64,000 nucleotides of DNA from Anaeromyxobacteraceae bacterium (GCA_047602405.1 JASGHJ010000002.1:2688001-2752000); one strand, 5' to 3'; shown: positions 13,009 through 16,953, numbered from the stretch's first letter. Notes: generated by a model not told the origin, from the sequence alone. Program-made: numbers and translations.

Positions 13009-13482
13009 TCAGCTCGGGCGCGGGTCGGCCCACTCCCAGACGAGCGCACCGTCGCGCGCGGCGCGCTCGAGCAGGCGCGCGAGCTCCTCGAGCGGCGCGG
13101 CCGGGGGCACGTCGATGGCCACGAGCTTCGGCCGGAGCACCTCGTGCGTGCAGCCGAGCCGGACGACGGCCGCGAGGAGCCGCTCGGTCCGCTCGCTCCC
13201 GAGCTCCTCGCCCACGTCGAGCGCGAGCCGGAGCGTGCGGTGCCCGCCCCGCTCCACCACGGCGTCGATCCACGGCGGCCGCCCCGGCGCGTGCACCACG
13301 TCCTCGCGGGAGAGGCCGTACGCGAAGAACGGGCAGCTCTCGACGCGGTAGCGGCCGGACCCGAGCGGCTCGGCCCACAGCCAGTCGTCGTCGGGCCCCG
13401 GCTCGCCCGGCCCGCGCTCGAGCGCGATGCGGATCCGCACCAGCCCCTCGACGGCCTCGACCTCGTCCTTCGTCCCCGGCAC
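13009..13482 (-). CDS. DUF4265-like protein
   Basis: WLWAEPLGSGRYRVESCPFFAYGLSREDVV...GHRTLR...VAIDVPP. Start GTG 13482 is inferred; the longer ORF call runs into the mobile element. Confidence 0.7.
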   Translation of the reverse strand: MPGTKDEVEAVEGLVRIRIALERGPGEPGPDDDWLWAEPLGSGRYRVESCPFFAYGLSREDVVHAPGRPPWIDAVVERGGHRTLRLALDVGEELGSERTERLLAAVVRLGCTHEVLRPKLVAIDVPPAAPLEELARLLERAARDGALVWEWADPRPS

Positions 13483-13492
13483 GCAGGAGGTT

Positions 13493-15433
13493 CTAAGAGC
13501 TGTCCCACAATTGCTCAAGCAAGTCGTGGGGCAGACCGGTTCGCCACCGGGCCCGCTCGGACGTGGTCTCCCGTGAGGAAGGCTCATTCCGGGTTGGGCC
13601 CGCGGCCGTGCCGGCGGTTCGCCGAGCCACCGGCGATGAGGCCGGTGTGGACGTCCGCCACGCGGGGCAACTGGCCTCGCGGGCGAAGAGGTCGTTTGAC
13701 TCGGACCGGGTGTCTTGCCACCCGAGACACAGGTAGGGTGTGAGGAGGCGCTGGATTTCGGGGCGGGAGCCGTTTGCGGCGGCGTAGTCGACGCGCGCCG
13801 AGTCGGGTTCGCTGGAGAGGTCGAGCACGACGAAGCTCGCGAGCACCGCGGAGACGGCGTCGCGGTCGCCCTCGAGGCCGCAGCCTGGGCAGCGGTGGAC
13901 CCGGTCGGCGAGGGTCTTCGGCACGCGGGCGCCGCAGGGGCAATGCTGGGAGAGCGCGGTCGTGCGGGTGGGGATCCGGACGACGCCTCCCTTGGTCTGG
14001 GCGAGGCCTGCCACCGCCTTTGCCTCGCGGTCGATGGCCGAGACGAGCAGGCCCGGCGTGAATGCGGCCACGCCGCGGCCCCAGCGGCGCGCCCACGCGG
14101 AGATGTGGCCTTCCTCGACGAACAGTCGGTAGCCGTGGGTTCGGACGACGTCGGCAGCCACCCGCCTGGCGCGGTCGCGGCGGGCCTGCACCCCGGCAGC
14201 CGCGCTGGCGACCTCTTCGGCCCGAAGCCGCCGGTGGCGGCGCGAAAGTTGGTCGCGCCGGTAGGCCTGGAGCGGCACGCCGTCCGCCCTCGCAATCCTC
14301 GGCCCCTGCGGAATGACGTTCACGGGCGAGAGGCCAGAGGCGGCGCGTCGCCGGGCGCGCTTCTCTTGCCGCGTCGACAGCCGGTACTGTTCCTGGTTGG
14401 CAGCGCGGCGGGACCGGTCCAGCGCCCGCTGCCTGCGGCGCTCGCGGCGCCGCCGGCCACGGTCTCCATCCTTCGTGGCAAGGTCGCGCGCGATCCGCGT
14501 GAGGCGCAGGTCGCCTCCCGCCACCTGCGAGGCGATCGTCAGGTTCGACACGTTGACGTCCATCCCCGCGAGGCGGTCAGCCTCGGCGACGGCGACCTCC
14601 GCTCGACGCGCCCTCGTGGCGGGCGAGAGGTAAGGCTCCTTCAGCACCATCAGGTGGGCTTCGTAACGCCAACCTCCGGGCGCATGAGGTGCCCGGGTGC
14701 GAACGAGGTCGACCTTGTGCCAGAGGCTCGGGTCGGCGAGGTGGTAGTCGAGGATGGGCTGGTTGCACGGTGCCGTGGGCAGTCGCACCGGGAGGACCAG
14801 CGAGCCGTCGGCGAGCCCGCTGAAGACGAGCATCAAAGGACCTTGGTAGGCCCACCAGTCGACGCGGCCGCCCGGAGCCGAGGGGGCTCCGAGGCGATGG
14901 CCCGCGAGCGAGCCGTGCAGCCGGAAGGTCTCCCACTTCCGCGCCGTCGTGTGAGAGCGCGCGCGGCCGGGCAGCCTCCCGAAGTCGAACCACCGTCCGA
15001 CGTGGAGCAGTCCCTGCCGCTTTCCGGTCGCGTCGGGGAACAGGTGCCGCTCCGCCGCCGACCAGACCGAGTCGGCGAGGTGCATCGCGAGCGCCTTCGT
15101 GACGAAGCGCCGGAGGTGAGGCGCCGCCTCGAGAACGGCGTACGCGGTGTGCTCGAGCGCCTCCCGGCTCAGGCCGAGCCGGTCGCGCGTGCCCGCGGCG
15201 TCCCGGGCCCGTTCGTGCTTCGCCGCCCAGTAGGCCCGCGTACGGTTCCGGGCCGCCCGCTGCAGCGCCCGCCGCACCCGGTACGCGTCCGCGAACATCC
15301 GCTCGAGCCGCCGACGCTGCAGGGGATCGTGGACGTCGAGCGCGAGCCGCAGGACCGACACGCCGCCCTCGGGCCGGCGCGCCCAGGGCTCCTGCTTGTT
15401 CGGACCGCGGGTCCGCTTGGGTTCGACTTCCAC
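13493..15433 (-). CDS. tnpB: Large TnpB/Cas12-superfamily RuvC nuclease (646 aa), probably RNA-guided
   Basis: RuvC-I LAGMDVN, Arg-rich helix, RuvC-II LFVEEG, zinc finger CPCG...CPGCG, RuvC-III DRDAVSA; D-E-D triad intact; uninterrupted ORF. Confidence 0.85.
   Translation of the reverse strand: MEVEPKRTRGPNKQEPWARRPEGGVSVLRLALDVHDPLQRRRLERMFADAYRVRRALQRAARNRTRAYWAAKHERARDAAGTRDRLGLSREALEHTAYAVLEAAPHLRRFVTKALAMHLADSVWSAAERHLFPDATGKRQGLLHVGRWFDFGRLPGRARSHTTARKWETFRLHGSLAGHRLGAPSAPGGRVDWWAYQGPLMLVFSGLADGSLVLPVRLPTAPCNQPILDYHLADPSLWHKVDLVRTRAPHAPGGWRYEAHLMVLKEPYLSPATRARRAEVAVAEADRLAGMDVNVSNLTIASQVAGGDLRLTRIARDLATKDGDRGRRRRERRRQRALDRSRRAANQEQYRLSTRQEKRARRRAASGLSPVNVIPQGPRIARADGVPLQAYRRDQLSRRHRRLRAEEVASAAAGVQARRDRARRVAADVVRTHGYRLFVEEGHISAWARRWGRGVAAFTPGLLVSAIDREAKAVAGLAQTKGGVVRIPTRTTALSQHCPCGARVPKTLADRVHRCPGCGLEGDRDAVSAVLASFVVLDLSSEPDSARVDYAAANGSRPEIQRLLTPYLCLGWQDTRSESNDLFAREASCPAWRTSTPASSPVARRTAGTAAGPTRNEPSSRETTSERARWRTGLPHDLLEQLWDSS
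13496..13735 (-). ncRNA. Putative omegaRNA-like scaffold overlapping the tnpB 3' end
   Basis: The ~80 codons of low-information protein tail lie over stacked hairpins at 13708-13730, 13628-13647, 13536-13550 and 13504-13530; same position as TnpB omegaRNAs. Inference. Confidence 0.45.
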
Positions 15434-16165
15434 CTTTTCACCTTAAGCCAAAGCCCTGACAGGCGTTCAGGGCCTCCGAGCAGGCGCCCATGGACGAAGT
15501 GAGCAACGTTCGCGCCTCCAGGCTGTCCCTCATCCCGACCCACCGACTGCTCACCCTCGCGTCCCTCTCATGGCGCGACCTTGCTCGCCTCCGGCGCGTG
15601 CTCCCCGCGTCCAGGTGCCGGGGGCGTCCCTGCTCGAGCTCGCCGCTGCACCGTCTCCTCGTCGCCTGCATCGCGCTGCGCACCAACCTCACCCTGCGCG
15701 AGCTCGCCGCCGTCGTCGGCCTCTCGAAGTCGACCGTCCATCGCATCGTCGCAGCCTTCACGCCGAGGCTCGCTGGCCTCGCTCGCCCTCCCGTCCGGAG
15801 AGATCGCCGCGAGACCTGGATCGTCGATGGGACCCTCATCCTCACTCGTGATCACGGCCGCCCACCGTCGGCGAGCACACGGCGGTGGTCGAGGCCCCTG
15901 AAAGCGGGGATGCGAAGGCCGGTGAAGCCTCGGTATCCTGCAACGCCCGGGTGCTCGTGCGCTGGCGAGACCGTCGGAGCAACGGGACCGTTCGGGATCG
16001 CGCCTGGCGCCGCCATCGTCGCCGCCGGGCTCGCGTCGAACACGTCCTCGCTCGCCTCAAAGGCGCGTCCTGCGCGACCACCGCCGACGCGGCCGCCACC
16101 TCGCGGCCACCGTGGCAGCCGTCGCCGTCCTTCACAATCTCAAGCGAAACTTGTGGGACAGCTTC
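13496..16165. mobile_element. IS5-family-like element with terminal inverted repeats, carrying a tnpB-like gene and a decayed DDE transposase
   Basis: Left end AGAGCTGTCCCACAA (13496-13510) versus right end TTGTGGGACAGCTTC (16151-16165), 13/15 identical; TA on each side (13494-5, 16166-7); empty site reconstructs to CTAG; more A/T-rich codon usage than the flanks. Confidence 0.85.
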
Positions 16166-16168
16166 TAG
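15490..16168 (+). pseudogene. IS5-family (HTH + DDE, IS112/ISL2-like) transposase remnant
   Basis: RGRP...LRTNLTLRELAAVVGLSKSTVHR (HTH); IVDGTLILTRDH (first D); RARVEHVLARLK in a second frame (E); VLRDHRRRG...LHNLKRNLWDSF* in a third frame; middle ADxGY motif missing. Confidence 0.8.
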
Positions 16169-16953
16169 CGCGGACCGAGCCGCGCCGCGATCCCCTCGGC
16201 GAGGTCCCCGCCCGTGTGCCGCGGCGGAACGACACCCGGCTCGAGGCCCTCCTCCCGGAGCGCCGCCGCGGTGGTCGGGCCGATGGCCGCCAGCACGAGG
16301 CCCGCGGCGCCGAGCAGCGCGCGCGCGCGCGGGCCCAGCCCCGCGACCACCGCCCGGACGGCGGACGGCGACGCGAAGGCCACCGCCGCGATCTCGCCGG
16401 CGTCGAGCCAGCGGCCGAGCGGCGCGAACGCCTCGGGCGCGGCCGGGACGGTGCGGTACGCCTCGACGGCGACCACCTCGGCGCCCGCCGCGGCGAGCCC
16501 CGCCAGGATCTCCGGGCGCCCCTCCGCCGGGCGCGGCACGAGCACCCGGGCGCCGCGCACCTCGGGGCCGAGCGCGGCGGCGAGCGCGTCGCCGCGGGCC
16601 TCCGCGGGCACGAGGTCCGGGGGCCGGCCCAGCGCGGCCTCCAGGCGCTGCGCGGTGGCCGGGCCGACCGCGCCCAGGCGCAGGCGTCCGAGCGCGGCGC
16701 GCGGCACGCCCAGGGCGGCCATGCGCTCGAGCGTGCGGTCGACGGCGGTCGCGCTCGCGAAGACCGCCCAGGCGTGGGACGGCAGCGCGCGCAGCGCCGC
16801 GTCGAGCGGCCCCGGGTCGGCGGGCGGCGCGAACGCGATGGCGGCGACGTCGCGGACCTCCGCGCCGAGCGCGCGAAGCCGGGCGGACAGCTCGTCCTCC
16901 CCGCCGCGGCCGCGGGTCACCACCACGGCGCGCCCGGCGAGGGGGCCGGCCAA
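16165..16953 (-). CDS. hemD: Uroporphyrinogen-III synthase
   Basis: PLAGRAVVVTR, FASATAV, AVGPATA, VEAYRT, FASPSAV, AIGPTTA; follows hemC. Confidence 0.9.
   Translation of the reverse strand: MAGPLAGRAVVVTRGRGGEDELSARLRALGAEVRDVAAIAFAPPADPGPLDAALRALPSHAWAVFASATAVDRTLERMAALGVPRAALGRLRLGAVGPATAQRLEAALGRPPDLVPAEARGDALAAALGPEVRGARVLVPRPAEGRPEILAGLAAAGAEVVAVEAYRTVPAAPEAFAPLGRWLDAGEIAAVAFASPSAVRAVVAGLGPRARALLGAAGLVLAAIGPTTAAALREEGLEPGVVPPRHTGGDLAEGIAARLGPR

What the first reader, a model, noticed from the sequence alone, without database searches (positions are those of the whole stretch)
13476..13735. Predicted omegaRNA ending in the terminal repeat, with a guide read from flanking host DNA
Seen: after RuvC-III the ORF continues as a low-information tail over several hairpins. 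The last hairpin (minus strand CCCACGA-C-TTGC-TTGA-GCAA-TTGTGGG, 13504-13530) uses the terminal repeat itself as one arm. Established: TnpB omegaRNAs overlap the gene 3' end and take their guide from DNA beyond the element end. Inference: the guide would be about (TAG)AACCTCCTGCGTGCCGG and would target the element-free hemD-DUF4265 junction, with the TAM supplied by the other flank (...GGTCCGCGC[TAG]).
Basis: inference. Interest (0 to 1): 0.75.

Follow-up and report, generated by a model that had tools for sequence, protein, structure and literature searches.

The report
Guide RNA of cut-and-paste TnpB transposon
A jumping gene with inverted-repeat ends carries a conserved, strongly folded RNA region that ends exactly at its insertion site and likely guides its TnpB nuclease to the element-free version of that site; this pairing is known in outline, but the sequence here gives a predicted RNA fold, guide boundary and target signal that can be tested directly.

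Summary
Window 13496-16165 is an IS5-like element with inverted repeats, a broken transposase and a tnpB with intact RuvC residues. The last ~230 nt of tnpB fold into a conserved structure: 51 of 57 pairs show two-sided changes in mostly held-out homologs. Conservation stops sharply at CT|TAG. The element-free junction exists in relative G010 and reads CTAG. Metatranscriptome contigs from relatives map to this stretch; one ends 16 nt past the TAG (weak evidence).

Corrections: the duplication is TA within CTAG, not TAG. Nothing upstream of CTA is conserved, so the TAM is predicted to be CTA(G). A predicted pseudoknot (AAGA/UCUU, paired in 108 of 112) uses the first target-derived base, so the guide likely starts after TAG. 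The tail is not low-information: the tnpB frame ends on that TAG in most homologs.

DDE-associated TnpBs are in print (Altae-Tran 2023); my searches found no RNA or TAM described for this group. The scan earlier noted a similar IS5-type TnpB element in another genome. Cleavage is untested, and this copy has a ~13-15-residue deletion.

The parts
13493..13725 (-). Predicted omegaRNA scaffold (~232 nt), entirely inside the tnpB ORF
   Evidence: Covariation; model R1 hit 13493-13728; RNA contig 5' ends at 13716-13738 in 7 of 8 runs laid
13707..13724 (-). First hairpin; its loop AAGA (13713-13716) is the predicted 5' strand of the pseudoknot
   Evidence: (helices 1 and 2)
13500..13534 (-). Terminal hairpin whose 3' arm is the right terminal repeat (core 13504-13530)
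   Evidence: weakest helix (77% of cells paired)
13495..13498 (-). UCUU, predicted 3' strand of the pseudoknot: last 3 nt of the element plus the T of the duplicated TA
13496..13510 (.). Right terminal inverted repeat
13493..13495 (-). TAG = duplicated TA plus the G of the CTAG target; also the tnpB stop codon
13477..13492 (-). Predicted 16-nt guide from host DNA (hemD-DUF4265 spacer and first codons of DUF4265)
   Evidence: Conservation ends at TAG; one RNA contig of a relative runs 16 nt past TAG; length inferred
13493..15433 (-). tnpB, 646 aa including the ~110-residue tail over the RNA; RuvC D292, E440, D525 and C4 zinc finger intact; ~13-15 aa in-frame deletion near residues 180-192
15490..16165 (+). 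Divergent IS5-like (HTH_Tnp_4 + DDE_Tnp_4) transposase, broken by an internal deletion and inversion; an uninterrupted copy lies at G000:C1 ~645840-646690
16151..16165 (.). Left terminal inverted repeat (first two bases differ from the sister copies)
16166..16168 (-). 5' flank CTA (C plus duplicated TA), source of the predicted TAM
16165..16953 (-). hemD; its TAG stop is the insertion site and survives, completed by the first base of the element
13009..13482 (-). DUF4265 gene, directly downstream of hemD in element-free relatives

Best explanation
The 3' end of tnpB in this inverted-repeat, IS5-like transposon encodes a conserved ~230-nt structured sequence ending at the insertion-site TAG, which is likely the omegaRNA scaffold that loads TnpB and would carry about 16 nt of flanking host sequence as guide. 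Shown: the element inserts at CTAG and duplicates TA; the fold covaries; conservation ends at CT|TAG; the empty hemD-DUF4265 allele exists in a relative. Inferred: the tnpB mRNA reads through the right end and is trimmed to the scaffold plus guide. A pseudoknot between the first hairpin loop (AAGA) and the end (UCUU) closes the scaffold across the element boundary, so the TAG is scaffold and the guide begins at about 13492. TnpB would recognise CTA(G) followed by the guide match, which occurs only in the element-free allele. The filled allele offers TTAG before the same sequence, so self-protection would rest on one C/T difference. Cutting empty alleles would favour repair from the filled copy and so keep the element.
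For: Structure: 26 of 51 RNAalifold pairs have compensatory changes. In A2 (23 sequences), 92.9% of cells are paired and 31 of 61 pairs change on both sides; 0 of 500 shuffles reach this, and slid controls give 31-40%. Model R1 hit 77 of 81 further loci; 51 of 57 pairs change on both sides there (alignment fitted to the model). Boundary: 54 of 64 genome loci had a locatable end, all CT|TAG (the pattern required TAG but allowed C or T before it). 61 of 65 model-defined ends read CTTAG. Bases after TAG are unconserved. Left flank: CTA in 36 of 39 unconstrained finds, no consensus upstream. Empty sites: G010 for this copy, and CTAG at 4 of 9 further insertions tested. Pseudoknot: fully paired in 108 of 112 distinct loci, with the outer A-U to G-C switch in 3 separate lineages. 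The last element base is T in 121 of 121 right ends, while the first base of the left end varies (A 41, G 16, C 3, T 1 of 61). The one own-genome end reading CCTAG is a fragment that has lost most of tnpB and the scaffold. Protein: fold matches ISFba1 TnpB and Cas12f (E 1e-10); catalytic D/E/D present in 120/121/117 of 121 loci. RNA: in run X2 a 242-nt contig covers 13489-13718 plus 12 unlike bases, that is TAG + 16 nt, with no other part of the element laid. Precedent: PMC10711439 reports that flanking or duplicated bases enter the scaffold in IS607 TnpB and Fanzors.
Against: No cleavage, binding or small-RNA data for this copy. RNA evidence is from assembled contigs of relatives, found with this region as query. 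No DNA run was laid as control, several contigs are single-read length, strand is unknown, and two contigs run on into the coding part (13812, 13853). The pseudoknot's outer pair is an A-C mismatch in 4 loci (2 lineages), two loops could not be located, its inner three pairs barely vary, and my loop pattern was partly constrained. The terminal hairpin folds better on the opposite strand in 76 of 111 ends and has more C-A than G-U cells (15 vs 7). 2 of 9 further empty sites read CTAC and 3 were uninformative. This genome's TnpB has a 13-residue segment where 95 of 100 matched loci have 23 or more. No CTAG + guide site with fewer than 5 mismatches exists in this assembly, so the target must come from excision or an incoming allele.
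Confidence: 0.8

Rival explanations
1. The RNA is an omegaRNA, but the guide starts inside the TAG (at A or G), with a TAM of only CT or CTA, closer to the first reader's bracketed version.
For: The pseudoknot accounts only for the T of TAG. The invariant A and G could simply reflect the transposase's target preference. Contig ends are imprecise.
Against: In IS607 TnpB and Fanzors the fixed flanking or duplicated bases are scaffold (PMC10711439; review PMC13565253). The X2 contig gives 16 nt counted from after TAG.
Confidence: 0.3
2. The RNA and guide are made, but this particular TnpB no longer cuts; it is a decaying copy or a binder only.
For: Lineage-specific loss of a near-invariant QP-containing segment. 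The transposase of this copy is broken, and two sister copies are frameshifted in the tail.
Against: All catalytic and zinc-finger residues are intact, the ORF is uninterrupted, and the RNA scores at the top of the model hits in its genus. The model is confident overall (mean pLDDT 83.7).
Confidence: 0.25
3. The folds are DNA or RNA signals for transposition or termination (subterminal repeat, opposite-strand hairpin), or a by-product of a conserved protein tail, not a guide scaffold.
For: The terminal hairpin folds as well or better on the other strand, its 5' arm resembles the terminal repeat, and some left ends also form hairpins. The reading frame of the tail is conserved.
Against: Core helices favour the tnpB strand (G-U 83 vs C-A 23 cells; 23 of the G-U come from one invariant pair). 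There is no codon periodicity in the tail (entropy 0.67/0.72/0.67). Tail peptides change frame in some lineages while RNA motifs persist. The hairpin is much stronger at the right end than at the left. No terminator-like site was found.
Confidence: 0.07

Closest known systems
DDE-transposase-associated TnpB branches DDE-1 to DDE-6 (Altae-Tran et al. 2023, PMC10691335; section 9 and passages read; review PMC13565253 names ISL2, IS630 and IS1031 partners, passages)
   Same: TnpB inside inverted terminal repeats with a DDE transposase; tnpB 3' end near the element end; transposase-less copies with the same ends.
   Different: Those texts give no RNA structure, guide boundary or TAM for these branches in the parts I read. 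I could not assign the branch: figures and Additional Files 10-11 are not held, and the supplement PDF text lacks the branch names.
IS200/IS605 TnpB reRNA/omegaRNA, e.g. ISDra2 (passages)
   Same: RNA overlaps the tnpB 3' end; subterminal hairpin at the element end; pseudoknot next to the guide; ~16-nt flank-derived guide; TAM matches the insertion motif.
   Different: DDE rather than Y1 transposase, symmetric ends and a TA duplication. The scaffold is about twice as long (~230 vs 116 nt) and lies wholly in the ORF, and the pseudoknot is predicted to use a target-derived base. NCBIfam TnpB models score far below cut-off (25-30 bits).
IS607 TnpB (ISXfa1, ISFba1) and Fanzor RNAs (PMC10711439 section 25 and passages; PMC11061315 passages)
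   Same: Fixed flanking or duplicated bases are taken into the scaffold; Fanzors in TIR elements include the repeat and the duplication; the top fold match is ISFba1 TnpB.
   Different: Not a serine recombinase element. No RAGATH-18 or other Rfam match. The ISFba1 RNA does not overlap its ORF. RuvC-II here is the canonical type, not the Fanzor rearrangement (E440 lies ~58 residues before the zinc finger).

Membership tests
TnpB (OMEGA) RNA-guided nuclease system | RuvC I/II/III with D-E-D and C4 zinc finger, TnpB/Cas12f fold | tested here: met
   (PF07282 above cut-off)
TnpB (OMEGA) RNA-guided nuclease system | Conserved structured RNA at the right end, conservation ending at the element boundary | tested here: met
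TnpB (OMEGA) RNA-guided nuclease system | Pseudoknot next to the guide | tested here: inconclusive
   108 of 112 paired, 3 compensatory lineages, 2 lineages with a mismatch at the outer pair
TnpB (OMEGA) RNA-guided nuclease system | Discrete expressed RNA extending ~16 nt into the flank | tested here: inconclusive
   Contigs of relatives only; one with TAG + 16 nt; no DNA control, no raw reads
TnpB (OMEGA) RNA-guided nuclease system | Guide- and TAM-dependent DNA cleavage | not testable with these tools
   Needs a bench assay
IS200/IS605 or IS607 element | Y1 (HUH) or serine-recombinase TnpA, no inverted repeats, no duplication | tested here: not met
   DDE transposase, inverted repeats and TA duplication
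IS5 family (ISL2-like group) | HTH_Tnp_4 + DDE_Tnp_4 transposase | tested here: met
   PF13359 above cut-off in 3 of 3 homologs tested, PF13613 above cut-off in 1 of 3
IS5 family (ISL2-like group) | Score above a curated IS5 model cut-off or placement in the ISL2 group | tested here: inconclusive
   NF033581 40-52 bits against cut-off 140; no tree with ISfinder references; the ISL2 label is recalled from the domain pair and from the review
IS5 family (ISL2-like group) | Short terminal inverted repeats and a 2-3 bp target duplication | tested here: met
   ~15-bp repeats, TA duplicated in CTAG; the group's typical duplication length is recalled
Known Rfam RNA family (e.g. RAGATH-18) | Match to a curated covariance model | tested here: not met
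   Only 2 chance-level hits in 13300-16300, neither in the scaffold

The most novel reading that the evidence does not exclude
This family uses the target-derived TAG three ways: it closes the omegaRNA pseudoknot, it separates self (TTAG) from target (CTAG) by a single base, and it is the selected stop codon of tnpB. Ribosomes would then have to translate the whole ~230-nt scaffold, coupling guide-RNA production to translation, for example by shielding it from Rho or delaying folding until TnpB is made. That would be a translation-coupled omegaRNA biogenesis route not found in my searches, and an answer to how a duplication-making DDE transposon can keep an RNA-guided homing nuclease.
Probability: 0.3. 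Interest if true: 0.72.

Novelty: new variant of a known kind. Interest (0 to 1): 0.55.

Why it matters
TnpBs partnered with DDE transposases are listed in print but were excluded from the largest omegaRNA survey (PMC10278001 section 13). A recent review calls their rarity in prokaryotes an open point and asks for their characterisation. This family spans Myxococcota, Actinomycetota and other phyla. It yields a concrete scaffold, guide boundary, TAM and self-avoidance rule, plus a natural empty allele, so the question of how TnpB copes with target duplications becomes directly testable. The maintained reading frame through the RNA is an unexplained extra. As an editing tool a CTAG TAM would be restrictive.

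Tried and rejected
Rfam: no family. Sigma-70 promoter and terminator scans: none. 'TAG duplication' rejected in favour of TA in CTAG; my first left-end searches forced CTA, so only one search counts as a test. A longer TAM from the upstream flank was rejected: no consensus at 8 upstream positions in 59 flanks. A protein-only explanation of the tail conservation was rejected. Targeting of host stop codons could not be tested, because GC-rich shadow frames make 65% of the 1073 genomic CTAG sites end a long frame. The fuzzy empty-site search gave mostly chance matches and was replaced by BLAST. Uncovered parts of the element in RNA runs prove nothing; 8 of 24 listed runs were laid, all as contigs, and three of them (2025 sludge) may be one campaign. 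14 of 80 metagenome loci were not given to the model search (mostly cut before the 3' end or duplicates). The tree is the quick version, since the careful search did not finish. Literature searches: TnpB + IS5 family + terminal inverted repeats + RNA-guided, 0 papers; TnpB + TAM + CTAG, 0; TnpB + ISL2, 3, of which only the review is relevant; TnpB + DDE + Myxococc + guide RNA, 1 general review, listing only. A family motif was absent from the Nety supplements. Subscription papers and bioRxiv supplements were not searchable.

Full report
1. The element. The window holds a 2670-bp element at 13496-16165 bounded by ~15-bp inverted repeats. It carries tnpB on the minus strand (13493-15433, 646 aa) and a divergent transposase on the plus strand, broken by an internal deletion and inversion relative to an uninterrupted sister copy. 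The genome has six full-length or near-full-length copies and one fragment. Intact homologous transposases hit Pfam DDE_Tnp_4 and HTH_Tnp_4 and, below cut-off, NCBIfam IS5 models, so I call them IS5-like; 'ISL2-like' is a recalled label. The TnpB has D292, E440, D525 and four zinc-finger cysteines, conserved in 117-121 of 121 loci. Its predicted fold (pLDDT 83.7) best matches ISFba1 TnpB and Cas12f.

2. The observation. The hairpin is at 13504-13530 as stated, and the region folds better than 200 of 200 shuffles (z -2.55). No Rfam family matches.

3. Conservation and boundary. Of 64 genome loci, 54 had a locatable right end, all CT|TAG followed by unrelated sequence. A covariance model built from 23 of them hit 77 of 81 further loci, 66 metagenomic and 15 genomic; 61 of 65 ends examined read CTTAG. 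Positions after TAG show no consensus in 115 distinct ends. An unconstrained search for left ends found CTA before the repeat in 36 of 39, and nothing is conserved further upstream. The target is therefore CTAG with TA duplicated. The window's left end is a variant that mimics a TAG duplication.

4. Empty sites. In relative G010 the hemD stop is followed directly by DUF4265 and reads GGTCCGCG CTAG AACCTCC, matching 14 of 16 predicted guide bases. The hemD-end and DUF4265 hits lie within about 150 nt in 20 of 22 relatives with both. Of 9 further insertions tested, 4 had CTAG at the empty site (one with only the downstream flank aligned), 2 had CTAC and 3 were uninformative.

5. Structure. RNAalifold gave 51 pairs, 26 with compensatory change. 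My 61-pair structure on 23 sequences has 92.9% of cells paired and 31 pairs with two-sided change; no shuffle of 500 reached it and slid controls gave 31-40%. On 73 distinct model-aligned sequences, 51 of 57 pairs change on both sides (fitted alignment). Core helices favour the tnpB strand (G-U 83, C-A 23; 23 of the G-U from one invariant pair), and the tail shows no codon periodicity. The terminal hairpin pairs the repeat in 104 of 111 right ends against 25 of 58 left ends. It is the weakest helix and folds better antisense in 76 of 111; in ISDra2 the analogous end-overlapping stem tolerates mutation (bioRxiv 10.1101/2025.02.11.637750, passages).

6. Pseudoknot and guide boundary (inferred). 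The loop of the first hairpin (AAGA, 13713-13716) is complementary to UCUU at 13498-13495, whose last U is target-derived. It is fully paired in 108 of 112 distinct loci: 78 AAGA/UCUU, 27 AAGG/CCUU and 3 with a wobble. Four have an outer A-C mismatch, and in two loci the loop was not found. On a quick tree the G-C state appears in three separate lineages and the mismatch in two. PMC10711439 (passages and section 25) shows that fixed flanking or duplicated bases join the scaffold in IS607 TnpB and Fanzors, and that the pseudoknot is needed for ISXfa1 activity. By analogy the TAG is scaffold, the guide starts near 13492 and the TAM is CTA(G). The filled allele presents TTAG before the guide match. 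The last element base is T in 121 of 121 right ends but its left counterpart varies, which fits both the pseudoknot and self-avoidance; the two cannot be separated here. The only CCTAG end seen belongs to a fragment lacking most of tnpB and the scaffold (one case).

7. Expression (weak). 24 runs, mostly metatranscriptomes, held 7-12% of the query's words; 8 were laid. In X2 one 242-nt contig (10 differences in 230) spans 13718 to the TAG plus 16 further bases, 12 of them unlike this flank, with nothing else of the element laid. Contigs without a loose 5' end stop at 13716-13738 in 7 of 8 runs, though several are single-read length and two contigs continue into the coding region. These are relatives' contigs, selected with this region, without strand or DNA control.

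8. An unexplained feature. The tnpB frame ends exactly on the target TAG in 37 of 54 and 52 of 65 loci. The RuvC-III-to-TAG distance is a multiple of three in 97 of 121 loci, across 19 of 36 distinct lengths (p 0.012 against one third; kin not independent). In the main 84-row clade 74 are in frame, and the exceptions are tips. Some lineages shift frame internally but return to the same stop, so the stop position rather than the peptide seems selected. Translation through the scaffold may protect or time the RNA; this is a hypothesis.

9. Caveats for this copy. Its TnpB has a 13-residue segment where 95 of 100 matched loci have 23 or more, and no close CTAG + guide target exists in the assembly (best 5 mismatches of 16). 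A homing role needs precise excision or an incoming empty allele. Precise excision is reported for the related PIF/Harbinger elements (PMC4561436, abstract) but is untested here.

10. Known or new. TnpB with DDE transposases and inverted repeats is in print (PMC10691335; PMC13565253). Such systems were excluded from the Nety survey, and my searches found no RNA or TAM description for them. The scan has two earlier notes on similar pairings in other genomes. Verdict: a real, well-supported omegaRNA prediction, a new variant of a known kind, interest 0.55.

Noticed in passing
window 13493-13495 and 16165-16168; homologs: Both genes of the element run into the terminal repeats in the same frame and use a target-derived TAG as stop, so TnpB and transposase end in near-identical peptides (LWDSS / LRDSS).
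   Followed up: partly
window 16165-16167: The insertion sits on the hemD stop codon; TA plus the element's first base (A or G in 57 of 61 left ends) still reads as a stop, so hemD stays intact while DUF4265 is separated from it by 2.7 kb.
   Followed up: partly
G000:C2:2661891-2662052 (L190): Short remnant of the element with a right end reading CCTAG, lacking most of tnpB and most of the scaffold.
   Followed up: partly
G000:C2:797494-801976 (L186): Sister copy of 4482 bp with about 1.7 kb of extra sequence between tnpB and the transposase region, and a frameshifted tnpB.
   Followed up: no
G000:C1:600047-602262, C1:1536137-1538336, C2:2144178-2146378: Three ~2.2-kb copies with most of the transposase deleted, probably moved in trans by the uninterrupted copy at C1 ~645840-646690.
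   Followed up: partly
L001 and L003 flanks against G000: Two empty sites read CTAC where the filled allele has TAG; later divergence or a relaxed target is unresolved.
   Followed up: no
G024:C55 and G014:C16: hemD end and DUF4265 are about 6 kb and 21 kb apart in these two relatives, with no match to the RNA model in either genome; other insertions may lie at or near this junction.
   Followed up: no
L029-L063 (Dactylosporangium and kin): Many copies per genome of ~2.1-kb elements with no transposase found, more divergent repeats and longer scaffolds (up to ~320 nt).
   Followed up: partly
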